56,282 nucleotides of DNA from Verrucomicrobiales bacterium (GCA_031265365.1 JAISCS010000030.1:1-56282); one strand, 5' to 3'; positions 10,217 to 31,686 are shown, counted from the first letter of the stretch. Notes: generated by a model not told the origin, from the letters alone. Numbers and translations are program-made.

Positions 10217-10219
10217 AAG

Positions 10220-13093: not shown

Positions 13094-13105
13094 GGTGAAA
13101 CGAGT

Positions 13106-14767: not shown

Positions 14768-14846
14768 GCGACATTTGAAACTAGCCAGTGAACACTGGCA
14801 CTTCAATTACTTATTACCACTGATTATGACTGGCACATACAAAAAA

Positions 14847-15748
14847 TCATTCGCCGGATTTCCCGCCGGTGGTGAAAGTCTGCCACGCTTTCGCAAAAGC
14901 CTCCTCCGGCAGCCACGTGGTGGTCTTGTTGCTCGCGGCTTGCCCGCTTTTGGCGTAAATCTCATGGTCAGCGAGGTTGCCGAGCCAGGAAATATCGCCG
15001 CCGGTCGCTGATGATGAGCGCCATGCCGTCACGCCGCGCAAAAAGTCACGCCCTAACACCGCCGCTTGCCCGACCTCGTGGCCGCTGTTCGGCTCGAAGG
15101 CAAAGCACCACACCGCGCCGCGCCGCGCCGGCCGGCGGTGTAACGCTCGGTGATAAGTTCCGTGCGCTCGCGGTCGTTCTCGCCGCCAATAAATAACGCG
15201 GGTACTTTCAACATCGCGCTGCGTGGGTCGTTGGTGTTCAGCGCTGACTTGACCAGCACGAAACCCGCCACGCGCTCCGGCTTCCAGTTGGCAAAATTGT
15301 ACGCGAAACCGCCGCCCGCCGAGTGCCCCCACAGCAACAACGGCGCGGTGGCGAGCTCCAGTTTTTGCGTTTGCGCGGCGAAATGTTTCAGCGTGTCGAG
15401 CAGCGCCTTGCCCGACCAATTTTCCACGCGGACATAATGCGGCGCGCTGCCGCCCTTGTTGTTAACCAGCCGGCACGCGAGAATCGCGCACCGCTGCTCG
15501 TCGGCGAGCCGCTGCCACGCGGCCTCATCCGCCATGCCGCGCCCGTCGCCGTTGTAACCGGGCAGCAACACGAGCGTGTAGTTAATCTCACCGTCAGCGG
15601 CGGGCAACCGCAGCCGAAACTCCGCCATATAGGGGTCGGGCGCGTTGTATTTATAATCCAGCGACTCCGCCACCGTCAGCGACGCGGCGAACGCTGACAC
15701 TGTCAGCGACAATAATAATTTCACTTTTTCACACATAATTTTTCTCAC
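14847..15748 (-). pseudogene. Secreted alpha/beta-hydrolase (esterase) interrupted by a frameshift
   Basis: Frame 1 (15053-15748) carries the signal peptide and the nucleophile elbow GHSAGG. Homology continues in a second frame (14847-15419) as ...VWCFAFEPNSGHEVG.... The frame switch falls within the GC repeat at 15109-15140. The true start may be MCEKVK at 15736. Confidence 0.7.
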
Positions 15749-15790
15749 ACGAAGCCATGAAGGGGAAAAATATTCTTGCCTTCGTGTGAG
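15744..15790. repeat. Family-B hairpin between the 882-aa gene and the esterase gene
   Basis: ctcacacgaag...cttcgtgtgag forms an inverted repeat. Confidence 0.6.
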
Positions 15791-15800
15791 CCTTTCTTTT

Positions 15801-18449
15801 TCATGGTTTTAACTGTCTGGCTAAAAATTCGCGGGCATCTTGTTCCAGTTCCAACACCGTCGGCGGTGTCAAATCGGGATAATTTTTCCACTCTACCTGA
15901 ACGTCAGCGGCTTGCAACAACGTAGCGAAATGCACGGCGGTTGCATAACGGTCCATGTGATTGTAACGGCAATCATCATCAAATTCCGAGGCGCTAATAT
16001 GAAACGCCACTTTTTTTAACGCCGAAAAAGGACGCAATCCGGGTTCTGCCAGTCTGGGACAACCAAGATTGCTGGGACGCCCCACCGCCACTGCCGCGAC
16101 CAAATCAGGACGCCAGCGTGCAAAGCGAAGCGGAAATCCACTGCCAGAGGCGTAAGTGTAAAATAATAACTGTTCTTTTTGGATGGCGCATTGCTGGTTG
16201 ATTTGCGCCAGACCATCTAACAACGCTTGTCCCGACCAAACTTGCGCCGCGATATAATAACTGTACGTATCGTTTTTTTGCCAAGCCCATGACGAAGTTT
16301 TGAACTGCGGCATGACTACAACTAGATTGTGCGCGTCGGCAAATTTCGCCCACGCGCTATCTAGCCGGAGGTAGGAAAGATTTTCCGCGTTGGAACCCGC
16401 GCCTAATACTAGCACCCGACGCGGCTGGTCACCGTCAGCGGCGGATGGCACGCGATAAAAAATTCGCAATTCTGGATTGTCCATGTTGGGCGTGGGGACT
16501 GAAATCACGCGCACTTGCTCAGGCAAATTCGCGCGTTGCGGGTCAAAACGCAAATCTTTCAACAATCGGACCGACTGCCGTGCCAAGTCACCGCTGACAC
16601 CTAAATCCATGTCCCCGTTCGTCAATTTTTCATCGTAACGCTTCTTTATCAGGGGAATGGTCTCATTGTTGCTTAATTGCAGGGCAAGTTGGGCTTGTTG
16701 CACGGCTTCAGGAAAACGCCGGTTCATCCGATGAATTTGCGCGCGGCAAAAGGCGGCGTTGGCTTTGACAAGGTTATTAGTGTAACCGCGGTTCAAATCG
16801 GTGACTGGCGCGTGCTGGATTTTTTCAAGCATCGCCTCCGCTTCAAGATAACGACCGCCATGCAACAATGTCAGTGCCTGTTCATATAAAAAGCCGAATT
16901 CCTTGGAATTAAAATCACCGCTATCGAGCTTCTCAAAAGTTTGTGTTTTGAATTTGAGATAAAACTCCGCCAATTCGGACTGGGTAAAAGCTCGGTGCAT
17001 ATCTTCACTACGCAGTAATTTCCACCAATCGGCGGGATTGAATTTCCCAGAATTGGCGTTGGCTTCCGCAATTGTGAGTTGTTGCTCGAAAAAACCACGC
17101 TCAAAAATATAGCGAATAAAATTGAATAATTCGTTGCCATGTTGCCGCTCGGCTTGCTCGCGGGTTAGAGTTTGCCACGGAATATACCGCTGTAGCTGAT
17201 TACTCTGACGCTGACGACCTATCCGCTGTCCGGCTTTTTCCACGCACTCAGCCAATTGTTTCTGCAAGGCGGTGTACTGTTGGTCGGAGACAATTTCAAT
17301 AAACGCGCGTTCAGTTAACGAAAATATGAACTGGCTAACCGAGTTTTCAAGCTGGTTGAGTTGCTGCTCGGAATCCACCCGTTCAAGCCAGAATTTCAAG
17401 CCATTCGCCGTGTAATTGATTTGCCGCTGGTAGGACGCCTGTTCTTCTTTGCCATTGAACGGATATTGAATTGGCAAGCCGAGTGTGGCGTTGTGTTCGT
17501 ACAATGACTGTCCTGCCACCCAAGTGGTCATGGCGATTGAATTGGAGAATTGTGCCAGCCATTCATCGGGTGGCACCGCGCGAAAACTGCCTTTGCTGTT
17601 AAACAGAATGGCGGCCTGGGCTTCCTTGATTTTGTCCTCCGGCGGGACACACGAATAAGACTGCGCTTCATTGAAAAACCAACGGGTAAATTCGTTCAAG
17701 CAAGGAATTTTTTGCTCTTTTTTCCATGTCAGCCGGATTGTGTGCGGATAAGGTTTCCAATCTTGACTGTCAGCGGTCATCTCGTCCCCATAGTCACCCC
17801 GCCAGTGGTCTCCCCAATATTCAGCCGTGGTGTCACCGTCAGCGAGGCGCGCCAGATTTTGCGTGGACTTGGTGTATTTGGCGATTTTGAAAAGGTCGGG
17901 AAAATTGGCGGGATTCGCCTGTTTAATATCTGCCAGCAAACTGGCGCATTGGTGGATAAGTTCCCGGCGGGACATTTTCCCTTGCGTATCGAATAACAAC
18001 GAGTAGTGCGCGACCAATGCCGGCGCGTCTTGGTCATTGTCAGCGATAAAATTTTTAAGCAAGGTGACAAAATCCGATTTTTGACCGGAATAAATTCTGC
18101 CGACATGGTCGCTGCCGATGTAAGTGTAAATTTGCGTTAGTTCCAGCCAGCGTCGCTGTGGATGACCTGCCGACAATTTCGCAATGCAATAATCACGCAA
18201 AGCGTTGCTCAAAAAACCTTCAACACCGGCGCGTTTATTATTGTTTTTTTCAAAACTATATGACGGCAACATGACATTGGCTGGGTCAGTTAAAGCTAGT
18301 TTGAGCAGTGCGACGTTAACATCGCTACCGTTTGCTTGCCGCAAATTATTTTCTAATTCTACGATAGAAGTTTCAGCTTTCGCCGCTGACGCTGCCGGTG
18401 CAACAGTCGAAGATTCATGTGCCATCCCACCCGCGCAAAAATTTTTCAA
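15801..18449 (-). CDS. Large unknown protein: novel N-domain + TPR-like region + degenerate alpha/beta-hydrolase domain (module gene B, copy 1)
   Basis: Paralog of 19937-22654 along its whole length. The C-terminal domain aligns with the esterase at 14847-15748 (WSGQALLDGL vs WSGKALLDTL), but the nucleophile elbow reads YASGSG. Confidence 0.8.
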   Translation of the reverse strand: MKNFCAGGMAHESSTVAPAASAAKAETSIVELENNLRQANGSDVNVALLKLALTDPANVMLPSYSFEKNNNKRAGVEGFLSNALRDYCIAKLSAGHPQRRWLELTQIYTYIGSDHVGRIYSGQKSDFVTLLKNFIADNDQDAPALVAHYSLLFDTQGKMSRRELIHQCASLLADIKQANPANFPDLFKIAKYTKSTQNLARLADGDTTAEYWGDHWRGDYGDEMTADSQDWKPYPHTIRLTWKKEQKIPCLNEFTRWFFNEAQSYSCVPPEDKIKEAQAAILFNSKGSFRAVPPDEWLAQFSNSIAMTTWVAGQSLYEHNATLGLPIQYPFNGKEEQASYQRQINYTANGLKFWLERVDSEQQLNQLENSVSQFIFSLTERAFIEIVSDQQYTALQKQLAECVEKAGQRIGRQRQSNQLQRYIPWQTLTREQAERQHGNELFNFIRYIFERGFFEQQLTIAEANANSGKFNPADWWKLLRSEDMHRAFTQSELAEFYLKFKTQTFEKLDSGDFNSKEFGFLYEQALTLLHGGRYLEAEAMLEKIQHAPVTDLNRGYTNNLVKANAAFCRAQIHRMNRRFPEAVQQAQLALQLSNNETIPLIKKRYDEKLTNGDMDLGVSGDLARQSVRLLKDLRFDPQRANLPEQVRVISVPTPNMDNPELRIFYRVPSAADGDQPRRVLVLGAGSNAENLSYLRLDSAWAKFADAHNLVVVMPQFKTSSWAWQKNDTYSYYIAAQVWSGQALLDGLAQINQQCAIQKEQLLFYTYASGSGFPLRFARWRPDLVAAVAVGRPSNLGCPRLAEPGLRPFSALKKVAFHISASEFDDDCRYNHMDRYATAVHFATLLQAADVQVEWKNYPDLTPPTVLELEQDAREFLARQLKP

Positions 18450-19950
18450 TCTGCCCGCGCCATTCCCCAGGCTTCACCAGCAGCGGCAACTCGGCGCTGG
18501 CGGTCAGCGTGCCGTTCAGCGTGTCGCGCAAAAACCAGCGAACCACCGACCGACCGTCGCTGATGGTGGTGCGATTAAAAAAACTCGGCGCTTGCTCCCA
18601 GCGGGGACCGTCAGCGTCACTGAGTCCCGTGAGCCAGTCGTATTCGCGACAAATTTGCGCGGGATTTTCCGGCAAACAAATTTTTTGTCCGGGCAACGAA
18701 TTCAGAACGTCAGCGGTCAGCACGGACAATCGCGCGCACAACTCTGGCGCGGCGCCGCTGACGCCCAGAAAAGCAACCGCGTCGCTGACCGTGGGCGCAT
18801 CGCTGTTGGTGGACACGGAGTAATCGAAAAACACGCGCGCATAACGGCGCATGGCGTCACCGAGCGGCGTCAGCGCCAGCGCGTCGTAACAACGCGCCTC
18901 CCACTCGTAGGCTTCCCTGAACTGGCGGTCGAGCATATAGGCGCGGCTGAATTCGTTGGTCGCCTCGGCGAATTTGCCCTCGTCATAAAGTTTGAGTCCG
19001 CGATAAAACGGTTGCAATGCCTCGACGCTGACGCTGGGCAAATACGGCTGCACGTTTTTCTCCGGCGTGCCAAACAACGGAAACAGCCACGATTGGATTT
19101 GGTTGACCACCGAAACACTCGCGCCGGAAAAATCTTTCGAGGCGACAAGCTGGCCGTCAGCGGCGTTGACGAGCCGCAGTTCGCAATGGTCACCGTCAGC
19201 GGGCGCGAGTTGCAAAAAATAATCCGCGCCGAGAAACGAGTTGTTAGGTATCGCGTCGCGCATCCCGCGCTCAGCCTCGTTGCGCCCGATGACAATCTCC
19301 TGCGTCAGCGCGCGGTCAAGCACGATGAAGCCGCTGACCGTCAGCGCGTCGCGCAGCCGCGTGGCGAGGATGAAAACTTGGTCATTCGCCAACCCGCCGG
19401 TCGGCTCAATAATCGCGACTCGCGGCGTGTGCCTGGCGAAGGTTTTCCCCGCGATATTTTTGAACAACCCGCGCGTCACCTCCGCCAACCGCGCGGCATC
19501 AGCGAGCCAAACATCTTTAACCTGCCCCGACGCGAGCAACGTCCCACGGTCAGCGGCGACAATTTCCACCAACCAATTACCGACTGAACTTTCTCGAAAA
19601 TGCAAATAATAAGTAATCACCGGCAACGGTGGCAACGGTCGCCCACCATCAGCGTCACCGCGCAATGCCAACTCCTCCCGTTCTCGCAACACCCGCGCAA
19701 ACTCCGCCCGCTCGACAACCTGAAACTCCGCAACCTTGCCCAACTCCGTCGTCAGCACACTCTGCCACCTCTCCCCGTCGCTCCCGCTGACACTGATCGC
19801 CACACGCGGCACCTCCGCGCACCAACCGCTGATGGTGAACCCTAACAACAACAAACTCACACGCAGCCATGGAATCACGAGGATTTTTCCAATCAAACAA
19901 TTCTTCCCTCGGATTCTCGTGCCTTCGTGGGAGACTTTACTTTTTTCCAT
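18415..19950 (-). CDS. Secreted unknown protein with repeated alpha/beta modules and TPR-like helix pairs (module gene A, copy 1)
   Basis: Paralog of 22667-24085. Conserved leader SHEGTRIRGKNCLIGK...WLRVSLLLLGFTISG. PRVAISVSGSDGERWQSVL... resembles CsgG/LpoB-type modules (by eye, low certainty). Confidence 0.75.
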   Translation of the reverse strand: MEKSKVSHEGTRIRGKNCLIGKILVIPWLRVSLLLLGFTISGWCAEVPRVAISVSGSDGERWQSVLTTELGKVAEFQVVERAEFARVLREREELALRGDADGGRPLPPLPVITYYLHFRESSVGNWLVEIVAADRGTLLASGQVKDVWLADAARLAEVTRGLFKNIAGKTFARHTPRVAIIEPTGGLANDQVFILATRLRDALTVSGFIVLDRALTQEIVIGRNEAERGMRDAIPNNSFLGADYFLQLAPADGDHCELRLVNAADGQLVASKDFSGASVSVVNQIQSWLFPLFGTPEKNVQPYLPSVSVEALQPFYRGLKLYDEGKFAEATNEFSRAYMLDRQFREAYEWEARCYDALALTPLGDAMRRYARVFFDYSVSTNSDAPTVSDAVAFLGVSGAAPELCARLSVLTADVLNSLPGQKICLPENPAQICREYDWLTGLSDADGPRWEQAPSFFNRTTISDGRSVVRWFLRDTLNGTLTASAELPLLVKPGEWRGQIEKFLRGWDGT

Positions 19951-22654
19951 AATTATTTTCAGTTAATTGGCTGGCCAAAAATGTCCGCGCGTCATTTTCC
20001 AATTCTGTCACCGGTGGCGATTGCAAACCGGCGTAATTCTTCCATTCCGAGGCAACGTCAGCGGCTTGCAGCAGCGTGACAAAATGCACGGCGGTCTCGT
20101 AACGATTATATAACACGGTCGTCTTGTCGCGGCATTGGTCGTCGTCAATCTCCGCCGCGCCGATGAAAATTTTCACCGCTGACAGTGACTTCAATGGTTG
20201 CAAACCCGGCTCGACAAATCGCGCCAATCCACCCTGACTGGGGCGACACAGCGCGACGGCGGCGACCAAGTCCGGCCGCCAGCGCGCAAACCGGCAGACG
20301 AATCCCGTGCCCGGCGCGTAGCCGTGGAACAGCAAACCGTCTTTTTGCAGCGGGCACCGCTCATTGATTTTATCCAATCCCGCCAAAAACGCCGCGCCCG
20401 ACCAAACCTGCGCGCTGGCATAATGACAAAACACGCTGGACGAATTCCAGTGGTATGTCTGGGCGCGAAACTGTGGCGCGACTAACACTAAATTGTAAGC
20501 GTCAGCGAACCGCGCCCATGCGCCACCCGGTTGCAGGTACGACAAAACCTCCGCGTTGGAGCCGACCGCCAGCGTCAACACGCGACGCGACTTGCCATCA
20601 GTGGCGGCGGGCACGCGGTAAAAAATCCGCAGCTCGGGATTGTCCAAATTCGGCGTCGGCACCGTCACCACGCCGACGCGGTCGGGCAATTCGGCACGTT
20701 CCGGCTGGAACCGCATATCGCTCAAAACCCCCGCCAGTTTCCGCGACAAATCGCCGCTGATGCCGCGCTCGGTCACTTCGTTTTCCCATTTCTCCTCGTA
20801 ACGGCGGATAATTCCTTTGAATGTCCCGCCATCGGCGAGTTGCAAGCCCTCGCGTAATTTTTGCACCGCTTCCGGTACGCGACCGTCAGCGCGGTAAATC
20901 TGCGCCAACCGGTACGCGGTATTGATACGAATCAAGTCGTTGTTGTAGCCGCGGTTCAAATCCGTCACCGGCAGCGCCTGCAATTTCTCCAACAACTCGA
21001 CGGCGGCAGTCCGCTCGCCGCCGTACAACAGTGTCAGCGCTTGCTCAAACAATCGGCTTAATTCCTTGCCCGTCAAATCGCCACTGCCGGCGAGTTTGAA
21101 CGACGCCGTGTGCAACTTGAGATAAAATCGCGCCAGTTCAGGATACGTGAATGTCTCGTCCAGTTTTTTTGTCCGCAGCAAATTCCACCACGCGGCGGGC
21201 TTGAAGTCACCGTCGGCGGTCGCCGCTTGCGCGGCATCCGACAACTTGTTGGTAAACCAATCGCGGTTCAACGGTTCCTCGTCAAAATTGTACAATATGT
21301 GCGCGGTTTGCCCGCCAACTTTTTCGCGCGTCAACTCCGGCCACGACAAATGGCGTCCGGGCTGTTTGCTAGGGTCGTCACGACCGGCGCGTTGGAACGC
21401 TTGCGCCGTTAGCGCTGTCAATTTTTGCCGCAGCGTGACATATTCCTCATCGGTAAAAATTTCCAATAATGGTCGCTCGTTCAACACGCCAAGCAAACGG
21501 TTGACATAATCCGTGTACCGCAGCACGTCCTCGTGGCGTGTGCGCGCCAGCCAGTATTCAACACCGTTGGCGACGTATTCAATCTGCCGCCGATACGACG
21601 CCAGTTCCGCCTTGCCGTCGAAACGGTGCTGAATGGGCAGACCGAGGTCGCGGCAAATTTTGTCCAACGAGGAAACGGCAAACGCGGTCATCGTCAGCGA
21701 ATTGGGATTTTGCGCCAGCCACTCGTCGCGGGCGATTTCCGTAAAACCACCGCGCCCGTAAATCAACAGACAACTCCGCGCCGCCGTGATTTTTTCCACC
21801 GGCGTCATTTTGAAAAATGAAACAATATTGGTGCGCCACGGCACATACGGCTCCAACGTCGGCGTCGGCTTGCCGCGCTGCCACGACAAACGGATGCTGC
21901 GCGGACAAGGCAGTGAGTTGCTCCGGCGCTCATCCTTGTTCATCGGCTCCATGTCGAACTCAATTCCCGTCTCGCCGCTGGCGATGCGCGCGAGGCGGAG
22001 GATGGCTTCGGTGTAATCGGCGACGCGGCCTAATTCCCTGAATTCGCCGCCGTCAGCGGCGCGCAAATCCGCCAGCAATTTCCCGCTCGTCGCGATTAAC
22101 TCCGGCAACGGCATTTGTCCCTGCGTGTCGTACAACAACGAATAACGCGCCAGCAAACCGGGCAAATCCGCGCCGCTGACGGTGATAAAATTTAGCAAAA
22201 GTTTAAGATAATCTTCCTGCTTGCCCGAAATGATTTTCCCGCGCGGGTCGTGGGGCAGATAACTATAAATCCGCATCAGTTGCAACCAACGGCGTTGCGG
22301 ATTATCCACGGGTAATTTTTCCACCAACCAATCGCGAAAGGCGAAGGTTAAAAACTCGCCGACATTGAGCCGTTGCAGATCATCCGCCTTTTCCAAACTG
22401 AACGACGCCAGCAGCGGATTAGTCGGGTCAACCGCCGCGAGATTGAGCAGCGCGACGTTGGCGTCGAGACCGCGAGCGCCGCGTAATTTTTGTTCCAGTT
22501 CTTCTATGAAAGTCCGGCTCGGCGGCGGCGGTTCTTCCACATACACGGAAAAAGGATTAAACACGGGTCGCAAAAAATCTTTGATTTGCGCCGACCAATC
22601 CTGTGGATTGGCGGTTAGCGTCAATTCTTTTTCTTCAAGCCGGTTGTCAAGCAA
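19937..22654 (-). CDS. Large unknown protein: novel N-domain + TPR-like region + degenerate alpha/beta-hydrolase domain (module gene B, copy 2)
   Basis: Colinear with 15801-18449. The elbow position reads GYAPGTG, with no Ser. Confidence 0.8.
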   Translation of the reverse strand: MLDNRLEEKELTLTANPQDWSAQIKDFLRPVFNPFSVYVEEPPPPSRTFIEELEQKLRGARGLDANVALLNLAAVDPTNPLLASFSLEKADDLQRLNVGEFLTFAFRDWLVEKLPVDNPQRRWLQLMRIYSYLPHDPRGKIISGKQEDYLKLLLNFITVSGADLPGLLARYSLLYDTQGQMPLPELIATSGKLLADLRAADGGEFRELGRVADYTEAILRLARIASGETGIEFDMEPMNKDERRSNSLPCPRSIRLSWQRGKPTPTLEPYVPWRTNIVSFFKMTPVEKITAARSCLLIYGRGGFTEIARDEWLAQNPNSLTMTAFAVSSLDKICRDLGLPIQHRFDGKAELASYRRQIEYVANGVEYWLARTRHEDVLRYTDYVNRLLGVLNERPLLEIFTDEEYVTLRQKLTALTAQAFQRAGRDDPSKQPGRHLSWPELTREKVGGQTAHILYNFDEEPLNRDWFTNKLSDAAQAATADGDFKPAAWWNLLRTKKLDETFTYPELARFYLKLHTASFKLAGSGDLTGKELSRLFEQALTLLYGGERTAAVELLEKLQALPVTDLNRGYNNDLIRINTAYRLAQIYRADGRVPEAVQKLREGLQLADGGTFKGIIRRYEEKWENEVTERGISGDLSRKLAGVLSDMRFQPERAELPDRVGVVTVPTPNLDNPELRIFYRVPAATDGKSRRVLTLAVGSNAEVLSYLQPGGAWARFADAYNLVLVAPQFRAQTYHWNSSSVFCHYASAQVWSGAAFLAGLDKINERCPLQKDGLLFHGYAPGTGFVCRFARWRPDLVAAVALCRPSQGGLARFVEPGLQPLKSLSAVKIFIGAAEIDDDQCRDKTTVLYNRYETAVHFVTLLQAADVASEWKNYAGLQSPPVTELENDARTFLASQLTENNYGKK

Positions 22655-22666
22655 ATCATGCCGCTG

Positions 22667-24085: not shown

Positions 24086-24089
24086 AATT

Positions 24090-27000
24090 TTATTCCTCAA
24101 ATTTTGCCAAATCCTCATACGGGATAAACCAAAAACCGTGTTCGTTCGCGGTCAGCACCAAACCGGAATCCGCGGCGTGGAGATGTAAAAATGAGTGGTG
24201 TTTTTCGGGAAACAATGTTTCCTCGGCGTTGCAAAGAAACGGTTTCACGCTGACAATGGGAACGATGATTTTGGCGTCTTCCTCCGGCATGGCAAAAGTC
24301 AGTGATATTTGTACACCAAATCCGGGTTGGTTGGCTTGCCACCAGCGCAGGTAATAATTATCCGCCGAATCGCGCTCGAGGCGAAATAATGAACCTGCAT
24401 GATAAGCGTAATTTTTCATCGCCATGTTCGTGGAGTCGGGACGAAATTTGGCGCGGTTGGGTATTTTCCAGCCAAACACAGTGGGTTGCGGATTAGTTTT
24501 TTTGGAACGGGATTCTTGGATAAGCCACGCAGGTTCATTATACTGACGACCCGTTAGCAATACGTCCCCGCGAGATTCTAACAAGCTCTCATCGCCATAA
24601 TTGGTCGGGGCGGGACGATAGAGTTCGGTAATAATTTCCCAATCACCGCCCAATCGCCGAATTTCGCCGCCGTCATTATTCATCACGAGCAGCGGTTCAT
24701 CATTGAAACCGTGAATGATGCCGGGACATTCGTTAGTCGGTCGCTCATCCAGCGGTGTTTCCGCCGGTTTGCGGCGCGCGCTGAACCAGAGCTTGAAACT
24801 GTCCTCTTGCGGTTGCCATTCCCACAACGCGCCGCCACGCCCGGCACCTTCGTCGGTCATGAAAAACACGCGATTGTTAAACACGAGAGGTCGCCCGGCG
24901 CCGGCAACTTCATGCAAGGTGGCGGTCTTGGTTGCCAAATCATAACAAAGCAGAGATTTGCGAACTTTGTTGTTGTCCGAATTGTACATATAAAACTTAC
25001 CGTCAGCGGGAACCAGCCAGCGCGACGACTCAGGTATGGTATGGATGGTCGTGGTCAACGTTGGCAAATCAATCTGGAAAACATATCGCCGGTACCCTTC
25101 GATACTCGGATACCAAACCGTGTTGCCGCTGACAATGACTTCGTCGGTCAATAAATGTTTAATATTCAATTCCAGCATTTGGTAGGGGCGCCAGAAGCGC
25201 GTGATTTTCAATTCCGGCGCGCCACTTTGGTCTGTCGCGGGCGGATTTAATCCGTTGCGACCCGCTAGGTTAGCCAGATTTTGAATCAGCAACGATTGCT
25301 GTGCCGCAGTTTTTCCGGGGACAGCGAGGCAAACTTGATGATAACGGGCAAATGCGGTATTGGCGCGGTCGCGCAAATCTGCGGGAAATTCAGGGACTTG
25401 TAAATATTCAATCGCAAATTCAAAATCAGGCAAATTTTCTAATAACGAGATTAACAATTCACTGCGCTCGCGGTGGAATAACCGACGGCGCTCATGGCTT
25501 TTATCGTCTGTCTCCAATAAAAATTTCAATTCTCCAGTATTGTACAACTCCACGCAATTTGCCGCCAAATATTGCAGAAACTCGCGATAAGCCGCTTGTT
25601 CCTCCGGCGTTTTCGCATTGCCTGCCCGCACTAACATTACCCGTCCTTTGAGCCTGGCATCATGCTCCCGGCGCTTCAGCATTTCTTGGCAAGCCTGCCG
25701 CGCCGCCTCGTTTTGCGCGAAGCGAAGTCCCAAGATATTTTCACGTGCCATCATTCGCAGTTGGATTCCCAATTTAATTCTCAACTGGATTCTTTGTCGA
25801 GAATTGGGTAATTCCAGCGATGTGGAAATAATTTGCTCAGCGTAAGCAAGCAACTCCTGATAATTCAATGCAAAATCCGCCGGATACTCAGAGTCTTCCG
25901 CAAACGTGCCGTCTTTGGTGCCGAGAAATTCTCGCGTTTGTCGGCGCAAATCATCCAACACATGACTACCGTCGCGGTCATGCGCTTGCAGCAAGTCGTG
26001 GATGTGGGTCAGGATTTGATACCGAACCCGCTCGAAAGAAAAACTATCCATAGAAAAGTAAGGTTGGTTCTTGTGGTAATCGGCGGGGAAATATTTTAAT
26101 TCGCCATCGGTGTGTCGGTAGTTTTGTAAATCCCGCACCGCGTCCTTGAGCAAGTCGGCGCGCCGATTTTTCATAAAGTCGTTATTTTGTTGATTGTCAT
26201 GAATAAACCGGTCAACGGTTTTGGCTCGCACCAAGTAAATATCCGCCGCCTTGCCGCCCAGCGTCTCCGCCGAATTGGGTGCCTCGCGGCAAGTGTGCCA
26301 CTGTTGCGCCCGCCACGCCCATAGTGCTTCCCACATGAATTCATCCGCCTCGCCGCTGATGGTGACACTGCCGGCGGGGAGGTTGAAATCGGCGAGGAGT
26401 TTTTGCAGCGCGGCTTCGGCGATGGATTTGGCGTCGGCGGGGATGGGGCTGACGGTCAGCGTGGTCGTGGTGGCATCACCGTCTGCAGCGCGGCGGAGGC
26501 GGAGTTTTAGCGTTACGGTTTTGCCGTCGTCCGGTTCGATGGAGCCATCTAATAAAATTTGGCTCGCTAACAGTGGCAGTGCATCCGTCGCGTTTAACGT
26601 TTTCTCAAACATCACGTCCGCCAAGGAACGACGTTCTAACAAAATAAATTTTTCCTGTTTGCCCAGGCCGAACTCCAACAACCGCGTCGCCGTTCGTTCC
26701 AGCTCAAGGTCACGCGCCGAGCCGCTGACCGAGCGCAAATTCAACACCGCTACCGCCGCCACCGGCAGCGTCCGGCTCCGCAACGCCGTCGCGCGATTGG
26801 CGACCCACGCCGCCACCACCGCGCTCCACGTCACAAGGCCACCGTCAGCGGGAATTTTTTCCGCGAACAAACACGCCCCGCTGTTGGTGGCAAGCAACTG
26901 CGCCAAGCGAAATTTCTCCCCGTTCTTCACCGTCAGCGTTTCCAGCAACAACCCGTCCGCCCCCGCCAATTCCCCCAACGCCCGAAACTCCCCGCTGACC

Positions 27001-27290
27001 ATCAACGCCCGCAATTTTTGTTCCGCGACAATTTCCCACAACTCCGCTCGCTCCAACACGTTGACCGTCTTCTGTGCCGTCAACGCCGTCACCATCAGCG
27101 CCTCCGCCTGCGAACTTCCATCCTTGTCCAACACCGCAATCTTAACCCCATCACTCGCGGTGGCAAGCACACCGCTGACGGTGAACCCTAACAATAGCAA
27201 GCTCACATGAAGCCACGAAGACACAACAGAAGAATATTTTGAAAAAAATATTCTTCGTGGCTTCGTGCCTTTGTGTGAGTTGTCGTTCAT
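24090..27290 (-). CDS. 1066-aa secreted unknown protein: two N-terminal CsgG/LpoB-like modules, a helical middle, and a beta-rich (propeller-like?) C-terminus
   Basis: Leader ...SSWLHVSLLLLGFTVSGVLA. Modules VKIAVLDKDG...VNVLERAEL and VAVLNLRSVSG...ILLERRSL. ATGA overlap with the upstream gene. Confidence 0.75.
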   Translation of the reverse strand: MNDNSHKGTKPRRIFFSKYSSVVSSWLHVSLLLLGFTVSGVLATASDGVKIAVLDKDGSSQAEALMVTALTAQKTVNVLERAELWEIVAEQKLRALMVSGEFRALGELAGADGLLLETLTVKNGEKFRLAQLLATNSGACLFAEKIPADGGLVTWSAVVAAWVANRATALRSRTLPVAAVAVLNLRSVSGSARDLELERTATRLLEFGLGKQEKFILLERRSLADVMFEKTLNATDALPLLASQILLDGSIEPDDGKTVTLKLRLRRAADGDATTTTLTVSPIPADAKSIAEAALQKLLADFNLPAGSVTISGEADEFMWEALWAWRAQQWHTCREAPNSAETLGGKAADIYLVRAKTVDRFIHDNQQNNDFMKNRRADLLKDAVRDLQNYRHTDGELKYFPADYHKNQPYFSMDSFSFERVRYQILTHIHDLLQAHDRDGSHVLDDLRRQTREFLGTKDGTFAEDSEYPADFALNYQELLAYAEQIISTSLELPNSRQRIQLRIKLGIQLRMMARENILGLRFAQNEAARQACQEMLKRREHDARLKGRVMLVRAGNAKTPEEQAAYREFLQYLAANCVELYNTGELKFLLETDDKSHERRRLFHRERSELLISLLENLPDFEFAIEYLQVPEFPADLRDRANTAFARYHQVCLAVPGKTAAQQSLLIQNLANLAGRNGLNPPATDQSGAPELKITRFWRPYQMLELNIKHLLTDEVIVSGNTVWYPSIEGYRRYVFQIDLPTLTTTIHTIPESSRWLVPADGKFYMYNSDNNKVRKSLLCYDLATKTATLHEVAGAGRPLVFNNRVFFMTDEGAGRGGALWEWQPQEDSFKLWFSARRKPAETPLDERPTNECPGIIHGFNDEPLLVMNNDGGEIRRLGGDWEIITELYRPAPTNYGDESLLESRGDVLLTGRQYNEPAWLIQESRSKKTNPQPTVFGWKIPNRAKFRPDSTNMAMKNYAYHAGSLFRLERDSADNYYLRWWQANQPGFGVQISLTFAMPEEDAKIIVPIVSVKPFLCNAEETLFPEKHHSFLHLHAADSGLVLTANEHGFWFIPYEDLAKFEE

Positions 27291-28249
27291 TTCACCATCA
27301 GCGGGATGATTCTGTCTAACAATTTGCCGACGGCGTTTTCAAGGGCTTGTTTGGCGGCGACGCTTTCGGCCAAGTCGGTGGCGGCGGCGGTTTCGCGGTC
27401 GGTGAGCAGCAGCTTGCCGGTGGCGCGTTCGGTGACGGTGATTTCCACGCGGGCGCGGCAGGCGACGAGGTTGCCGCGCCGCATGGCGAATTCGCTGAAC
27501 GCCTCGCCGTTGACGGCAAGCTCGGCATTTTCAGGATGATAAAACGCGATTCTATTGGTGCCGCTGGTAATGGTAAGCGGACTGTTAAAGCTAACGTTAA
27601 AAACAAGCGCTTGCAGGGTGCAGATGAATTCGGTTTGCGCGGCGGGGTCGGGGACTTGGCGGTTGAGGTGATGTTCGCTGATGTTGACACTGACGGTGGG
27701 CAGCGTTTTTCCGGCAAGGAGCTGTTTCAAACGTTCGAGACGGATGCAGGGGGCGTCGGGTTTCACGGTCAGCGTGGCGGCTTGTTTGTTGATGAGCGCG
27801 GCGATTCGGTCGGCGAGTTCGGCGGCGGCATGGTCGAGGCTGGCGGCGTCCTTGGCGGTGGTCATCTCACCGTACACGCGCGCGGTTTCGGCGCTGATGA
27901 TTTTAGCGACGAGATACAATTTGCCGCCGCTGTCGAAGAGCCGTCCGGTGACGAGCACTTTCGCGCCAAGCAACGCGCCAAGTTTGGCGGCGCTGTCCGG
28001 CGCGACGGTACCGGTCAGTCCGATTTCCTGCTCGCCGAGCACTTTGTCAATTTCCTGCCGCTCGACGAGGATGATGCCCGCCGCCGCTGACAGTCGGGCG
28101 CTGAGCAACACAGCGACTTCCGCGCCGCGTTTGCCGAGTTGCGGGTCGGCGGTTTGGAAGTCGAACACCGCCACGGTCAGCGGTTCGTTGGTGAGCGCCG
28201 CTGACAGTGTGCCGGCGGCGAATAATAATGTTAAGAACAGTTTTTTCAT
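27287..28249 (-). CDS. Secreted protein with CsgG/LpoB-like N-terminal module
   Basis: Signal peptide MKKLFLTLLFAAGTLSA, then VAVFDFQT...ILVERQEIDKVLGEQEIGLTG...LGAKVLVTGRL, the typical pattern of that fold (by eye). Confidence 0.7.
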   Translation of the reverse strand: MKKLFLTLLFAAGTLSAALTNEPLTVAVFDFQTADPQLGKRGAEVAVLLSARLSAAAGIILVERQEIDKVLGEQEIGLTGTVAPDSAAKLGALLGAKVLVTGRLFDSGGKLYLVAKIISAETARVYGEMTTAKDAASLDHAAAELADRIAALINKQAATLTVKPDAPCIRLERLKQLLAGKTLPTVSVNISEHHLNRQVPDPAAQTEFICTLQALVFNVSFNSPLTITSGTNRIAFYHPENAELAVNGEAFSEFAMRRGNLVACRARVEITVTERATGKLLLTDRETAAATDLAESVAAKQALENAVGKLLDRIIPLMVK

Positions 28250-28255
28250 AATAAT

Positions 28256-29110
28256 TTAATTTTCAACAATCATGACGCGACTGAGGTGTTGGTTAATCAG
28301 GTCGAGGAAAATCTCACAGCTGCGCGGGTTCGTTTCGAGGTCGCTAAGGATGGGCAGCGTGACTTTGGTCAATGCGCCGCCGCTGGCGGTCAGCGTGGTG
28401 TAAACGCCGGGCGGCAGGTCGCTGTCGCTGACAAACACAATGACGCGGGCGCGGTCACTGGCGGCAGACGGCAGGTTTTTTAATTCCTTCGCGGTGGTTT
28501 CGACGAGCGTCAGCGTGTCGGGTTGCGAAGCGGTTTCCACCCATGACAGATTGGCTTTCCGGTAGGCAAGAAAATTGGCAACGTGATGACTTTCATGTCC
28601 ATCGCTGACGGTGATGCATGGCATATTATTTTCCAAAAGTTTCTGATTAATAGCGCGACCAGTTACGGCTTTGTCCTCCGGCGGGTAAATAATCATTTGA
28701 ATCATGCCATAGTCAACATCAGCGTTTTTTTGTCGAAATTTTAGAGCAGCAGTCATGCGTTTTTTAACTTTTGGTATTTTGAAGCTGATGGTGTACAACG
28801 TGGTCAACGGATAGGAATGTCTGCTGACAGTCATGTCGGTTTTAAGTTTGGCCGCGATGCCGCCGCCAGTTTGAATGAAATCAATGGACAAGTCGTCAAG
28901 GGGAGACATAGGCGAAGAGACAATTACGGAAAAGTCGTCGCCACCGATGGCGTAGAGTTCAGGCTGAGGGCACCGCTGATAATGACTTAGCTGATTTCGC
29001 GCTACAAACGGTCTGACCATGTATTCGTCGCGGGAAACACCTTTTCCGTGGCAGGGCAAAGTTACGAACAAAGCAAACAAACAACAAAACGTTAGGGTTT
29101 TATTTTTCAT
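28256..29110 (-). CDS. Secreted hypothetical protein
   Basis: Signal peptide MKNKTLTFCCLFALFVTLPCHG. I recognise no motif. Overlaps the upstream gene by 4 nt. Confidence 0.6.
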   Translation of the reverse strand: MKNKTLTFCCLFALFVTLPCHGKGVSRDEYMVRPFVARNQLSHYQRCPQPELYAIGGDDFSVIVSSPMSPLDDLSIDFIQTGGGIAAKLKTDMTVSRHSYPLTTLYTISFKIPKVKKRMTAALKFRQKNADVDYGMIQMIIYPPEDKAVTGRAINQKLLENNMPCITVSDGHESHHVANFLAYRKANLSWVETASQPDTLTLVETTAKELKNLPSAASDRARVIVFVSDSDLPPGVYTTLTASGGALTKVTLPILSDLETNPRSCEIFLDLINQHLSRVMIVEN

Positions 29111-29709
29111 AACTTGACCATCAGCGGCCGGGCTTGGATGTTGTAGCCTAGCAATCGGTTGGAGTTTTCGCGGCTCCAGAGAAAATCGCCGTCGCTGACG
29201 ATGACGTGCCCGCCGGCGGTGAGCAGTGTTTCGAGGGAAATTTCCCTGCCATCCAGATTGAAGCGGACGACGCGCCCACTGAAGCTGAGGATGTTGATTT
29301 TTTCGCCGCGCCGTTCAAGACTCACCAACAGCGGTTGGGTGACGGTCAGCGACGGGTCGGCGCGGTCGGCGAGGATGATGCGCGTGTCGCCATCGCGCTC
29401 GATGACGGCGTTAAGTTGGTCGGGAAAAAGTTGCGCGATTTGGGCGAGCATTTTGCCGGACGGGTTGGTGTGGCGCGGGCTGGTCAAAAACGCCAACACC
29501 ACACCGACGCTGACGATGAGCGCGGCTTTGCCACAAAAACGCAGAATAGTTTTGAAATTTGTGATTTGAAATTTGGAGTTTTCTTGGAGCTTGGAATTTG
29601 GAGTTTGAGACTTAAACGCCATCAGCGCATGATATTTGGCGCGTTCCTTACGGTCAGCGTCCGGCCTCGGCACTGGCAAACCATTCAATATTTTTTCAAA
29701 ATCATTCAT
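29107..29709 (-). CDS. Putative anti-sigma factor (single-pass membrane protein)
   Basis: It lies directly downstream of the ECF sigma gene and overlaps it by 8 nt. It has a short cytoplasmic N-terminus, one TM segment (AALIVSVGVVLAFL) and an extracytoplasmic domain. The assignment rests on position only. Confidence 0.55.
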   Translation of the reverse strand: MNDFEKILNGLPVPRPDADRKERAKYHALMAFKSQTPNSKLQENSKFQITNFKTILRFCGKAALIVSVGVVLAFLTSPRHTNPSGKMLAQIAQLFPDQLNAVIERDGDTRIILADRADPSLTVTQPLLVSLERRGEKINILSFSGRVVRFNLDGREISLETLLTAGGHVIVSDGDFLWSRENSNRLLGYNIQARPLMVKL

Positions 29710-30265
29710 GACGTTTCGCTGCGTGATGCAGCCGTTGTTTGAGTTGACGTTTGGCGCGGAAAATTCTCCATGACACCGTGGCCTCGGCACAGCCTAGGAT
29801 TTGCGTGGCTTCGGCGTGGTTGCGGTTTTCGTAATAAGCCAGCACCAGCGCGTGCCGCCAATCATCGGGCAGCGCGGCAAGGGCGGCGTGCAATGGTGAA
29901 AAATCAGCAATATCACCGTCTCCGCCGGCAACATGGGTTTCCTCAATGCCGGCGGTCAGCGGCAAATTAAAATCGCGCCGCCGCTGACGTTGACGGAATA
30001 AATCCCGCTGCCGGTTGGCGGCGATTTGATAGAGCCAGTTTTTGAACGACGCCTCGCGCCGGAACCCGCCGATGGCACGCGCGGCGCTGACAAAGGTCTC
30101 CTGCGCGATGTCGTCGGCATCGTGGGCGCTGAGTGTCAGGCGGTAAGCAAAGGCGTGTATCATCGCGTAATACCGGTTGAACAAGTCCGCGAAAGCATCC
30201 GCATCGCCGCTGATGGCGGCCCCGACCAATCTCGATTCGTTGGCAAGCTCCTCGGTCTGGTTCAT
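29702..30265 (-). CDS. ECF-type RNA polymerase sigma-70 family factor
   Basis: Region 2 (FADLFNRYYAMIHAFAYRLT...DADDIAQETF) and region 4 (LPDDWRHALVLAYYENRNHAEATQILGCAEATVSWRIFRAKRQL). Confidence 0.9.
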   Translation of the reverse strand: MNQTEELANESRLVGAAISGDADAFADLFNRYYAMIHAFAYRLTLSAHDADDIAQETFVSAARAIGGFRREASFKNWLYQIAANRQRDLFRQRQRRRDFNLPLTAGIEETHVAGGDGDIADFSPLHAALAALPDDWRHALVLAYYENRNHAEATQILGCAEATVSWRIFRAKRQLKQRLHHAAKRHE

Positions 30266-30421
30266 TCTTTACGCTGATTATGACGAAAAAAACGCGCGAA
30301 TCCTTTGATATTTTTCAAAAATCAATGGCGTGCCGGCGGAAGAAATCAAACCGGTTATTATAACAAATGCTTGTTACACCAGCCAGTTTCTGTGAAAACT
30401 ATCGCCGTGACCACAAAAATA

Positions 30422-30675: not shown

Positions 30676-31686
30676 ATGATTGAAGATTTGCAACAACTCA
30701 AAGACCAAGCCCTGACCGAGCTTGCCGCCGCCGCTGACGCTGACGCCGTCGAAGCGTGGCGCGTCAAATATCTTTCCCGCCAGGGCCTGCTGCCCGTCTT
30801 CCTCGAAAAAATCAAAACGCTGCCCAAGGAACAACGTCCCGAGGCGGGCAAAGCCGCCAACCTCGCCAAGCTCACCATCAGCGACGCCTACGAGGCGAAA
30901 AAAGAACAATTCTCCACCGTCACCAGCAGCGCCCCCGAAGACCCGACCCTGCCCGGCCGCCCCGTCCCGTGGGCGACGCAACACGTGGTCAACCAGACCA
31001 TTGACCGCGTCGTGCAAATTTTCCGCCGCATGGGTTTCGCCCTCGCCACCGGCCCCGAAATTGACACCGAGTTTTACAACTTCGACGCCCTCAACACCCC
31101 CGCCGACCATCCCGCGCGCAACGAGCAGGACACGTTCTACGTGGACGCCCCCGCTGACCGTGACGGCCACCGCTGGCTGTTGCGCTCGCAAACCAGCACC
31201 GTGCAAATCCGCGCCATGCAAACGCAACCGCCGCCGATTAAAATCGTCGCCCCGGGCCGCTGCTACCGCCGCGATGAAATTGACGCGACGCACGGCGTTT
31301 TCTTCCACCAAATCGAGGGCTTGGTCGTGGACGACGGCATCACCCTCGCCGACCTCAAAGGCACGATGGAATACTTTTTCAAGGAATTTATTGGCGCTGA
31401 CACTCGTGTTAGGTTTCGCCCGCACTTTTTCCCGTTCACCGAGCCGAGTTTTGAAATAGACATGGCGCGCAGCGGCGCGACGATGAAAGGCAAAGAATGG
31501 CTCGAAATCGCCGGCTGCGGCATGGTTGACCCCGCTGTGTTTGACAACGTCAACATTGACAGCCGGCGCTACACCGGCTTCGCCTTCGGCATGGGCGTCG
31601 AGCGCCTCGCCATGCTCCGGCACGGCATCAACGACCTCCGCCTCATCTACGAAAATGACCTCCGCTTTTTGTCACAGTTCAAATAA
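30676..31686 (+). CDS. pheS: Phenylalanine--tRNA ligase alpha subunit
   Basis: Full-length PheS similarity: HPARNEQDTFY, LLRSQTSTVQIR, FRPHFFPFTEPS, GFAFGMGVERLAML. Confidence 0.96.
   Translation: MIEDLQQLKDQALTELAAAADADAVEAWRVKYLSRQGLLPVFLEKIKTLPKEQRPEAGKAANLAKLTISDAYEAKKEQFSTVTSSAPEDPTLPGRPVPWATQHVVNQTIDRVVQIFRRMGFALATGPEIDTEFYNFDALNTPADHPARNEQDTFYVDAPADRDGHRWLLRSQTSTVQIRAMQTQPPPIKIVAPGRCYRRDEIDATHGVFFHQIEGLVVDDGITLADLKGTMEYFFKEFIGADTRVRFRPHFFPFTEPSFEIDMARSGATMKGKEWLEIAGCGMVDPAVFDNVNIDSRRYTGFAFGMGVERLAMLRHGINDLRLIYENDLRFLSQFK

What the first reader, a model, noticed from the sequence alone, without database searches (positions are those of the whole stretch)
14847..30265. 15.4-kb ECF-sigma-headed operon of ten mostly unknown secreted proteins with a tandemly duplicated two-gene module
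- **Layout.** All ten genes are on the minus strand, with overlaps or gaps of at most 52 nt (several ATGA overlaps).
- **Gene order.** ECF sigma (29702-30265), a single-pass putative anti-sigma factor, a 284-aa secreted protein, a 320-aa secreted protein, a 1066-aa protein, then [483 aa + 905 aa] and [511 aa + 882 aa], then an esterase.
- **Shared modules.** The 320-, 1066-, 483- and 511-aa proteins share short alpha/beta modules of the pattern (V/I)AV.......(I/V)LERxEL......LxG. By eye these resemble the CsgG/LpoB/curli-assembly fold.
- **Larger proteins.** The 905- and 882-aa proteins combine an unknown ~450-aa N-domain, TPR-like helices and a degenerate hydrolase domain.
- **Assessment.** I cannot match this combination to any characterised secretion, pilus, curli or cell-surface-signalling system. 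It looks like a dedicated envelope-associated apparatus under extracytoplasmic-stress-type control.
Basis: partly seen in the sequence, partly recalled or inferred. Interest (0 to 1): 0.8.

Follow-up and report, generated by a model that had tools for sequence, protein, structure and literature searches.

The report
Verrucomicrobial ECF-sigma envelope operon, partly decayed
This is a real, uncharacterised gene cluster found across the phylum Verrucomicrobiota: a stress-type sigma factor with its own conserved promoter drives a set of exported scaffold proteins and an esterase. In this genome the main large gene has been duplicated, and both copies, plus the esterase, are broken.

Summary
The ten minus-strand ORFs exist as described, and the duplication is real (48-50% identity).

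**Correction to the "two-gene module".** In about 33 other Verrucomicrobiota loci, the [483+905] and [511+882] pairs correspond to one exported ORF of about 1,330 aa ("BIG").
- Copy 1 in the window is cut by a single in-frame TAG that replaces an invariant Trp.
- Copy 2 is cut by a 1-nt frameshift in the same linker.
- The terminal esterase is also frameshifted.
- The 905- and 882-aa pieces have no signal peptide.

**Conserved core.** The shared order is ECF sigma, single-pass anti-sigma, p284, p320, BIG, esterase. A promoter motif CCAAGGATT-N13-CGTC lies upstream of every sigma gene. It also precedes stand-alone BIG, p320 and p1066-like genes.

**Protein content.**
- p320, p1066 and the BIG N-terminus share two TolB-N/LpoB/CsgG-like modules, shown by Pfam, hhalign and AlphaFold2 (AF2) plus Foldseek.
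- They lack CsgG's lipobox, full-length profile match and curli partners.
- The rest of BIG is a roughly 590-aa helical region followed by an α/β-hydrolase domain whose nucleophile Ser is lost family-wide.
- The neighbouring esterase keeps GHSAGG.

No Pfam family, PDB entry, defence-system model or paper describes the system. The biochemical function remains inferred.

The parts
30282..30306 (-). ECF-type promoter motif CAAAGGATT-N13-CGTC, about 16 nt upstream of the sigma start codon. It lies in the 410-nt spacer shared with the divergent pheS gene.
   Evidence: The same motif sits upstream of the sigma gene in every locus that has one. The strict form occurs 26 times in 623 kb, against 0.42 in shuffles.
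29702..30265 (-). ECF (group 4) sigma-70 factor, 187 aa.
   Evidence: Sigma70_r2, r4_2 and TIGR02937 hits. Orthologues are 31-72% identical and sit at the head of the cluster.
29107..29709 (-). Single-pass anti-sigma candidate, 200 aa from the ATG. It has a short cytoplasmic helix, one TM segment and a conserved periplasmic domain of about 110 aa.
   Evidence: TM segment. The orthologue alignment shows the conserved C-terminal domain. No Pfam family matches.
28256..29110 (-). p284, an exported protein with no known domain. It is conserved after the anti-sigma gene.
   Evidence: Signal peptide seen. Orthologues occur in at least 7 loci at 19-36% identity. No Pfam or PDB match.
27287..28249 (-). 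p320, an exported protein made of two TolB-N/LpoB/CsgG-like modules. It is the most conserved member of the cluster.
   Evidence: Pfam CsgG 2.1e-8, partial. More than 1,100 homologues, the listed 120 being 45-74% identical. AF2 pLDDT 88.9. Foldseek hits CsgG pre-pore, FlgT, HpaA, TolB-N, LpoB, GNA1162, PelC and LptE.
24090..27290 (-). p1066, an accessory exported protein. It has the same double N-terminal module, then a helical region and a beta-rich C-terminus.
   Evidence: Pfam CsgG 1.7e-6. Colinear but very divergent homologues of 1,065-1,135 aa occur in L002, L009 and L016 (TAV5). It has its own ECF motif in L009.
27198..27282 (-). REP-like palindromic element at the 5' end of p1066. It is read through as "SHKGTKPRR...SWLHVS".
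   Evidence: RNA hairpin of -39.9 kcal/mol, z -5.1.
19937..24118 (-). BIG copy 1 (ORFs p483 + p905). It forms one frame interrupted only by TAG at 22667-22669.
   Evidence: The stop aligns with a Trp that is invariant in relatives.
23982..24079 (-). REP-like palindromic element at the 5' end of BIG copy 1.
   Evidence: Hairpin of -43.4 kcal/mol, z -6.3.
15801..19950 (-). BIG copy 2 (ORFs p511 + p882). It is interrupted by a 1-nt frameshift at the TGA of p511 (18415-18417). An ATG at 18425 overlaps that stop.
   Evidence: The AF2 model of the 874-aa C-terminal part has pLDDT 85 and pTM 0.87, with about 590 aa helical plus an α/β-hydrolase. Foldseek matches only the hydrolase domain.
19856..19933 (-). 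Degenerate copy of the same palindromic element at the 5' end of BIG copy 2.
   Evidence: Alignment. The hairpin is no longer significant, z -0.85.
14847..15748 (-). Exported serine esterase with GHSAGG and a SGHE histidine. It is frameshifted near 15115-15125.
   Evidence: Pfam α/β-hydrolase hits. Frame change shown. The gene is a single ORF of about 300 aa after BIG in L006, L008, L011, L015, L016 and others.

Best explanation
The locus is the local version of a six-gene regulon that is restricted to Verrucomicrobiota as far as sampled. The genes are an ECF sigma, a membrane anti-sigma, p284, p320, BIG (about 1,330 aa) and an esterase.

**Shown**
- The sigma gene carries a conserved ECF-type promoter (CCAAGGATT-N13-CGTC), which implies autoregulation.
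- The same motif precedes BIG, p320 and p1066-like genes when these sit apart from the sigma gene. They are therefore targets of this sigma factor.
- All non-regulatory products carry Sec signal peptides in relatives.
- p320, p1066 and BIG share two N-terminal TolB-N/LpoB/CsgG-like modules.
- BIG continues into a TPR-containing helical region and an α/β-hydrolase domain whose nucleophile Ser is lost family-wide.
- The adjacent esterase is an active-looking paralogue of that dead domain.

**Inferred**
- An envelope signal releases the sigma factor from the anti-sigma.
- The induced periplasmic proteins assemble through their shared modules into a scaffold. Those modules form rings or docking platforms in CsgG, PelC, FlgT and LpoB.
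- The dead hydrolase domain of the scaffold binds an esterified envelope polymer or lipid, or presents it to the active esterase.

**In this genome**
- BIG was duplicated in tandem, and p1066 lies between p320 and BIG.
- Both BIG copies and the esterase carry one disabling lesion each, so the distal half of the operon is most likely being lost.
For: - **Fused family.** An exhaustive HMMER search gave 46 representatives at E<1e-30. Nearly all are 1,300-1,450 aa, and the query matches residues of about 460-1,330. Their N-termini are Sec signal peptides.
- **Junction lesions.**
- **BIG is one ORF elsewhere.** It is a single ORF in 10 full-length genome loci and in all 21 full-length metagenome loci.
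- **Gene order.**
- **Promoter.** Enrichment is 26 observed against 0.42 expected.
- **Shared modules.** Pfam. hhalign gave probability 96.5%, E 1e-9. Foldseek.
- **Dead nucleophile.** The motif is GYGAGAGF, with His mostly kept.
- **Esterase.** It keeps GHSAGG and shares the WSGxALL motif with the dead domain.
- **Rest of the contig.** Housekeeping genes elsewhere in the window are full length.
Against: - No experiment or annotation gives a function. The substrate, the signal and any assembly are inferences from folds.
- The −35 element (AAGGATT) differs from the usual ECF GGAAC.
- Both BIG copies are broken within about 35 codons of each other, in the same inter-domain linker. Random decay would produce this only a few percent of the time. 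A functional split or recoding therefore cannot be dismissed.
- The two assemblies probably come from the same reads, so read-level errors are not excluded.
Confidence: 0.6

Rival explanations
1. It is a curli- or holdfast-type secretion system. The CsgG/HfaB-like proteins would form an outer-membrane channel that exports a fibre or adhesin subunit, for example p284.
For: - Pfam CsgG hits lie above the gathering score for p320, p1066 and p511.
- NCBI names p320 "CsgG/HfaB family protein".
- The best Foldseek hit is the CsgG pre-pore 4uv2, E 5e-7.
Against: - The Pfam match covers only profile positions of about 29-98 of 210.
- TM-scores are low, 0.26-0.40, with rmsd 7-9 Å. Single-domain relatives (LpoB, GNA1162, PelC, TolB-N) fit a module as well or better.
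- A lipobox is present in only 2 of 46 p320 and 2 of 31 BIG homologues.
- The cluster contains no CsgA/B/E/F or HfaA/D-like gene.
- p284 has no amyloid-type repeats.
Confidence: 0.07
2. The two interruptions are functional. One possibility is a true gene fission, with an exported N-terminal module protein and a separately translated C-terminal part. The other is programmed recoding that restores the full-length exported protein, through TAG readthrough in copy 1 and a +1 shift at ACA-UGA-A in copy 2.
For: - Both breaks fall in the same poorly conserved linker, about 35 codons apart in a gene of about 1,390 codons.
- Both downstream parts are otherwise intact ORFs of about 880 codons.
- Copy 2 has an ATG overlapping the stop (ATGGCACATGA) and a G-rich stretch just upstream.
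- TAG ends none of the other 21 genes checked in the window.
Against: - None of about 33 other full-length loci is split there.
- Without fusion, the C-terminal parts lack a signal peptide, although the family is exported.
- Two different recoding mechanisms at one site in paralogues is unparsimonious.
- ACA to CAU re-pairing is poor for a +1 slip (my own assessment).
- The esterase is broken too, which fits general decay.
Confidence: 0.15
3. The interruptions are sequencing or consensus errors, and all genes are intact in the organism.
For: - Two of the three lesions are 1-nt indels in G/C-rich or homopolymer-rich stretches.
- The JGI and Logan contigs may derive from the same read set.
Against: - The third lesion is a TGG to TAG substitution.
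- Two assemblers give identical sequence over 20.5 kb.
- Ten housekeeping and R-M genes in the same contig show full-length Pfam matches with no frameshift.
Confidence: 0.12

Closest known systems
ECF sigma / single-pass anti-sigma envelope-stress modules (for example RpoE-RseA, SigW-RsiW)
   Same: - The sigma factor has only the σ2 and σ4 domains.
- A co-transcribed single-pass membrane partner follows it.
- An autoregulatory promoter has a CGTC −10 element.
- The regulon consists of exported proteins.
   Different: - The anti-sigma has no recognisable ASD/zf-HC2 or RseA domain, and its periplasmic domain is unclassified.
- The −35 element is AAGGATT.
- The target genes are a unique Verrucomicrobiota-specific set.
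- The ECF group could not be assigned with the tools at hand.
CsgG (curli channel) and HfaB (holdfast anchor secretion)
   Same: The α/β module with the motif xAVxxF...VERxxL...E.xL, and its fold.
   Different: - There is no lipidation signal.
- Only about one third of the profile is matched.
- There are two tandem modules per protein.
- No substrate or accessory genes are present.
- No barrel hairpins are evident.
LpoB, TolB N-domain, PelC, FlgT, HpaA, LptE and GNA1162 (periplasmic docking or ring-forming proteins of the same fold)
   Same: Single modules superpose as well as on CsgG, with TM up to about 0.6 normalised by the target. These proteins act as periplasmic scaffolds or activators.
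   Different: Sequence similarity is not detectable. The partners are different. Here the modules are fused to TPR, helical and pseudo-esterase regions.
PHB-depolymerase/LpqC-type esterases, PahZ1 and other α/β-hydrolases
   Same: - The C-terminal domain of BIG and the stand-alone esterase have the α/β-hydrolase fold.
- The weak profile hits are to PahZ1 (9o7u, 1.7e-5) and LpqC (3d0k, 3.1e-5).
- JGI annotates p905 as "poly(3-hydroxybutyrate) depolymerase".
   Different: - The BIG domain lacks the nucleophile Ser across the family, and in the window copies it also lacks the His.
- The stand-alone esterase reaches no Pfam gathering score.

Membership tests
ECF (group 4) sigma-70 factors | σ2 and σ4 domains only, about 170-200 aa | tested here: met
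   Sigma70_r2 at residues 28-96 and r4_2 at 125-175 in a 187-aa protein. TIGR02937 scores 93.6 bits against a cut-off of 42.9.
ECF (group 4) sigma-70 factors | Co-transcribed cognate anti-sigma factor | tested here: inconclusive
   A single-pass membrane protein overlaps the sigma stop and is conserved in that position. No anti-sigma domain is recognisable by Pfam. Binding was not tested.
ECF (group 4) sigma-70 factors | Autoregulatory promoter with a conserved −35 element and a CGT-type −10 element | tested here: met
   CCAAGGATT-N13-CGTC lies upstream of every sigma orthologue and of detached target genes. The transcription start was not measured.
CsgG curli secretion channel (PF03783) | Full-length match to the family profile | tested here: not met
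   Only profile positions of about 27-98 of 210 are matched in all four proteins.
CsgG curli secretion channel (PF03783) | N-terminal lipobox Cys (outer-membrane lipoprotein) | tested here: not met
   The p320 signal peptide has no Cys. Lipobox-like strings occur in 2 of 46 p320 and 2 of 31 BIG homologues.
CsgG curli secretion channel (PF03783) | Genomic partners CsgA/B/E/F (or HfaA/D for HfaB) | tested here: not met
   No such Pfam or NCBIfam hit occurs in the operon. The orthologous clusters hold only families that gave no such hit in the Pfam scans done.
CsgG curli secretion channel (PF03783) | Nonameric ring with a transmembrane β-barrel | not testable with these tools
   Only monomer models were available. 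The long strands of the p320 second module are charged, not amphipathic.
α/β-hydrolase serine esterases (LpqC / PHB-depolymerase-like) | α/β-hydrolase fold | tested here: met
   In the AF2 model of p882, residues of about 630-874 match DPP4/S9, esterase D and FrmB at E~1e-6. Pfam α/β-hydrolase hits cover the stand-alone esterase.
α/β-hydrolase serine esterases (LpqC / PHB-depolymerase-like) | Catalytic Ser in GxSxG, plus His | tested here: not met
   For the BIG domain, the nucleophile position is Gly, Ala or Thr in nearly all of 31 homologues. The window copies also lack the His. The feature is met only by the separate esterase gene (GHSAGG, SGHE).
TonB-dependent cell-surface signalling (FecI/FecR/FecA type) | FecR-domain anti-sigma and a TonB-dependent transducer next to the sigma gene | tested here: not met
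   No FecR, Plug or TonB_dep_Rec hits occur in any operon protein.
Known anti-phage defence systems (PADLOC) | Any protein matching a defence-system model | tested here: not met
   No hit for any of the ten proteins. The adjacent R-M genes are not conserved with the cluster in other genomes.

The most novel reading that the evidence does not exclude
The six-gene cluster would be a previously undescribed periplasmic machine specific to Verrucomicrobiota. In this reading, p320 and the BIG N-terminus oligomerise through CsgG/PelC-like modules into a ring or platform under the outer membrane. The roughly 590-aa helical arm and the dead esterase domain capture an esterified envelope component, and the partner esterase edits it. 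The whole system is switched on by its own ECF sigma/anti-sigma pair in response to envelope damage. A bolder corollary is that the two differently made breaks at one linker reflect a selected fission or recoding of BIG in this lineage.
Probability: 0.3. Interest if true: 0.7.

Novelty: new variant of a known kind. Interest (0 to 1): 0.5.

Why it matters
**Why the system is worth study.** Verrucomicrobiota are abundant in soil, water and guts, yet their envelope biology is almost unstudied. This work defines the following:
- a phylum-wide regulon with a precise promoter motif;
- a highly conserved exported protein, p320, whose 120 listed homologues are mostly 50-58% identical to it and come from several families (Opitutaceae, Chthoniobacteraceae, Verrucomicrobiales);
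- a giant pseudo-esterase scaffold paired with an active esterase.

None of these has a Pfam family, a solved structure or a published description.

**Testability.** The cluster is present in cultured strains: Opitutaceae TAV1 and TAV5, and Geminisphaera colitermitum TAV2. The predicted sigma to promoter to target circuit can therefore be tested directly.

**Lesson for annotation.** The "duplicated two-gene module" here is really a duplicated single gene with one lesion per copy. Judging gene content from one metagenome contig alone can mislead.

Tried and rejected
- **Word-indexed protein search with p905.** It returned only itself, not even the paralogue. The exhaustive HMMER search was needed.
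- **PDB sequence searches.** Searches with p320, p1066, p284, the p905/p882 profile and the p320 profile gave nothing meaningful. The only hits were albumin and GCN4 noise. The BIG profile gave only TPR designs and weak PahZ1/LpqC hits.
- **Foldseek of the p882 model.** It matched only the hydrolase domain. The roughly 590-aa helical part stays unclassified.
- **Pfam on orthologue sets.** The anti-sigma and p284 sets gave nothing.
- **PADLOC.** Nothing.
- **Rfam and tRNA scans of the window.** Nothing.
- **Terminator scan.** No more sites than in shuffles, so it gives no operon-end information.
- **First metagenome scan.** A scan with the copy-2 junction peptide found no relative.
- **Literature searches.** CsgG with Verrucomicrobia and ECF, Opitutaceae with CsgG, CsgG-like with ECF, and TAV2 with sigma gave nothing relevant.
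- **ECF reclassification paper.** It mentions neither Verrucomicrobia nor CsgG in its main text, and no supplements are held.
- **TAG reassignment.** This was considered and rejected as a general feature. No other gene in the window needs it.
- **PVC membrane-coat-like proteins.** These (β-propeller followed by α-solenoid; paper listed, not read, so from my own knowledge) were considered for p1066 and BIG. The domain order differs, and the idea was not tested further.
Full report
**1. Observation**

The window is a 56,282-nt JGI metagenome contig. NCBI holds the p320 protein under "MAG: Verrucomicrobiales bacterium". An independently built Logan contig of run SRR14710922 is identical to it over 20.5 kb.

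Junctions are overlaps or gaps of at most 52 nt.
- The first gene is an ECF sigma.
- The second has one TM segment.
- p905 and p882 are 48% identical over 860 aa, and p483 and p511 are 50% identical. The tandem duplication is therefore real and old.
- Pfam CsgG is hit above the gathering score by p320, p1066 and p511, and weakly by p483. Only profile positions of about 29-98 of 210 are covered.

**2. The "two-gene module" is one gene**

A word-indexed search with p905 found only itself. An exhaustive HMMER search with the p905/p882 profile found 46 representatives at E<1e-30. Nearly all are 1,300-1,450 aa, and the query aligns to residues of about 460-1,330. Their N-terminal 460 aa are homologous to p483/p511 and begin with ordinary Sec signal peptides.

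The junctions in the window are as follows.
- **Copy 1.** p483 and p905 are in the same frame. They are separated by one TAG, at a position where all relatives have Trp (PVIRW...). This is a TGG to TAG change.
- **Copy 2.** A +1 shift at the TGA of p511 restores a stop-free ORF of 1,382 codons. Its linker (WDGT-ESS) matches WPGES of the closest fused relative.

The 905- and 882-aa pieces have no signal peptide or TM segment.

BIG is one continuous ORF in 10 full-length genome loci and in all 21 full-length metagenome loci. L014 is split, and L007 is broken near its 3' end. Both contigs belong to MAG MFD01213.bin.2.156. That these splits are assembly indel errors is my assumption and was not checked.

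The terminal esterase is also frameshifted near 15115-15125. It is a single ORF of about 300 aa elsewhere.

Housekeeping and R-M genes elsewhere on the contig are full length: RecA, CinA, PheS, FtsY, RibBA, PepF and others. The three lesions are therefore concentrated in the distal half of this operon.

**3. Conservation**

A scan of species-representative genomes gave 14 loci, 13 of them titled as Verrucomicrobiota (L015 is titled only "uncultured bacterium"). They come from Opitutaceae, Geminisphaera colitermitum TAV2, Chthoniobacter, Methylacidiphilales, "Spartobacteria" and Verrucomicrobiales.
- The order sigma, anti-sigma, p284, p320, BIG, often followed by the esterase, recurs in these loci. 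It also recurs in 22 metagenome loci, in Opitutaceae TAV5 and in another long contig.
- No other flanking gene is conserved.
- p1066-like proteins are occasional members (L002, L009, L016; a possible one in L040). They are colinear but very divergent.
- Extra BIG copies are common (L016, L018, L023, L028, L032, L039).

The window's duplication therefore fits a family habit. Its interruptions do not.

**4. Regulation**

Aligning the regions upstream of ten sigma orthologues reveals a motif: an A-rich tract, then CCAAGGATT, N13, then CGTC(T/A). It lies 20-60 nt before the start codon. In the window it is at 30306-30282 on the minus strand.

The same motif lies directly upstream of:
- BIG genes that stand alone or are divergently oriented (L005, L007, L010, L018, L035, L041);
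- p320 (L027, L028);
- the p1066-like gene of L009.

A strict form occurs 26 times in 623 kb, against 0.42 in shuffles.

This is computational evidence for an autoregulated ECF promoter, and for BIG, p320 and p1066 being its targets. The window has only this one copy in the cluster, which is consistent with a single transcript. Transcription itself is untested, and the terminator scan was uninformative.

**5. Proteins**

*p320*
- The AF2 model has pLDDT 88.9 and shows two α/β modules.
- Foldseek finds the CsgG pre-pore, FlgT, HpaA, the TolB N-domain, LpoB, GNA1162, PelC and LptE. TM-scores are modest.
- The p320 family profile aligns to the first roughly 230 residues of the BIG family (probability 96.5%, E 1e-9). 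p1066 matches p483/p511 over the N-terminus.
- It is not CsgG proper. There is no lipobox, only a partial profile match, and no curli or holdfast partners.

*BIG C-terminal part*
- The AF2 model has pLDDT 85 and pTM 0.87. About 590 residues are helical, including weak TPR hits, and an α/β-hydrolase domain follows.
- Only the hydrolase domain has PDB neighbours.
- Across 31 homologues the nucleophile-elbow motif reads GYGAGAGF, so the Ser is replaced, while the His is mostly kept. The window copies and their nearest relative have lost the His too.

*Other members*
- The stand-alone esterase has GHSAGG and a SGHE histidine. It shares the WSGxALL motif with the dead domain. BIG therefore carries an inactive paralogue of its neighbour.
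- The anti-sigma has a short cytoplasmic helix, one TM segment and a conserved periplasmic domain of about 110 aa.
- p284 is an exported protein conserved mainly at its C-terminus.
- Neither the anti-sigma nor p284 matches any Pfam family.

**6. Mechanism**

*Shown:* an ECF sigma with a conserved promoter; exported targets; shared N-terminal modules; a pseudo-esterase and esterase pair.

*Inferred:* an envelope cue releases the sigma factor. The induced proteins assemble through their CsgG/PelC/LpoB-like modules into a periplasmic scaffold. The helical arm and dead hydrolase domain of that scaffold bind an esterified envelope component, or present it to the active esterase.

In this genome, one lesion in each BIG copy and in the esterase suggests that the distal functions are being lost. 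The regulatory genes, p284, p320 and p1066 remain intact.

*Unexplained:* both BIG breaks lie about 35 codons apart in the same linker, yet they were made by different mutations. Under random decay this would happen only a few percent of the time. Fission or recoding stays open as a rival at about 0.15.

**7. Comparison and novelty**

The regulatory logic is that of a standard ECF sigma/anti-sigma envelope module. The effectors are built from known folds, but in a combination with no described relative. All BIG homologues are named "hypothetical protein" by their sources. No Pfam, NCBIfam, PADLOC or PDB assignment exists, and no paper was found.

I class it as a new variant of a known kind, with moderate interest of 0.5. 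It is phylum-wide and testable in cultured Opitutaceae, but its function is not yet known.

Noticed in passing
window 27198-27282, 23982-24079, 19856-19933 (minus strand); also 38778-38800 and 39272-39336: A dispersed palindromic element of about 90 nt has arms CACGAAGGCACGAAGACACGAAG and its reverse complement. It sits exactly at the 5' ends of p1066, p483 and p511, and is translated in frame as "SHEGTRTRR...SWLRVS" ahead of the signal-peptide core. Two copies fold into hairpins of -40 to -43 kcal/mol (z -5 to -6), and the p511 copy is degenerate. The element is absent from the relatives' loci. It may affect the mRNA stability or translation of these three genes. The real start codons may lie downstream of it.
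   Followed up: partly
window 22667-22669 and 18415-18425: Both BIG copies are interrupted in the same inter-domain linker by different lesions. Copy 1 has TGG changed to TAG. Copy 2 has a 1-nt frameshift with an ATG overlapping the stop. TAG is the stop codon of none of the other 21 genes checked.
   Followed up: partly
window 7046-14806 (minus strand): A block of restriction-modification genes lies directly downstream of the operon. It holds an N6_N4 methyltransferase (13106-14806), a 957-aa MmeI/Eco57I-like enzyme (10220-13093, local GC only 41%), a 232-aa ORF and an 821-aa ResIII helicase (7046-9511). It is probably a horizontally acquired island. It is not conserved next to the cluster in other genomes.
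   Followed up: partly
window 9651-9676 (plus strand): A second match to the loose ECF promoter pattern (CAAGGATT-N14-CGTC) lies inside the 232-aa ORF of the R-M block, on the opposite strand. It is probably a chance match.
   Followed up: no
window 32559-33389 and 31716-32549: A KilA-N domain protein lies next to a short (277-aa) FtsY. The sigma promoter shares a 410-nt spacer with the divergent pheS gene (30676-31686).
   Followed up: no
window 46000-55500: A high-GC (about 64%) region encodes an 856-aa protein with a faint T2SS-K hit (47100-49670) and a 757-aa PEP-CTERM protein (53147-55420). A separate class-2-lipase-like α/β-hydrolase lies at 36717-37295.
   Followed up: no
L016 (Opitutaceae TAV5, CP007053.1 3183283-3204287) and L018: Cultured TAV5 carries an expanded cluster: sigma, anti-sigma, 330 aa, p320, BIG (1,398 aa), esterase, p1066-like (1,130 aa), a 243-aa protein with a weak ribosomal-L12-C hit, and a second BIG (1,455 aa). 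L018 has small extra ORFs (240, 260 and 252 aa) around its second BIG copy. These accessory genes were not analysed.
   Followed up: no
method note: The word-indexed homologue search with p905 returned only the query itself. It missed even the 48%-identical paralogue on the same contig. The exhaustive HMMER search found 199 relatives. A "no homologues" result from the indexed search alone would have been misleading.
   Followed up: yes
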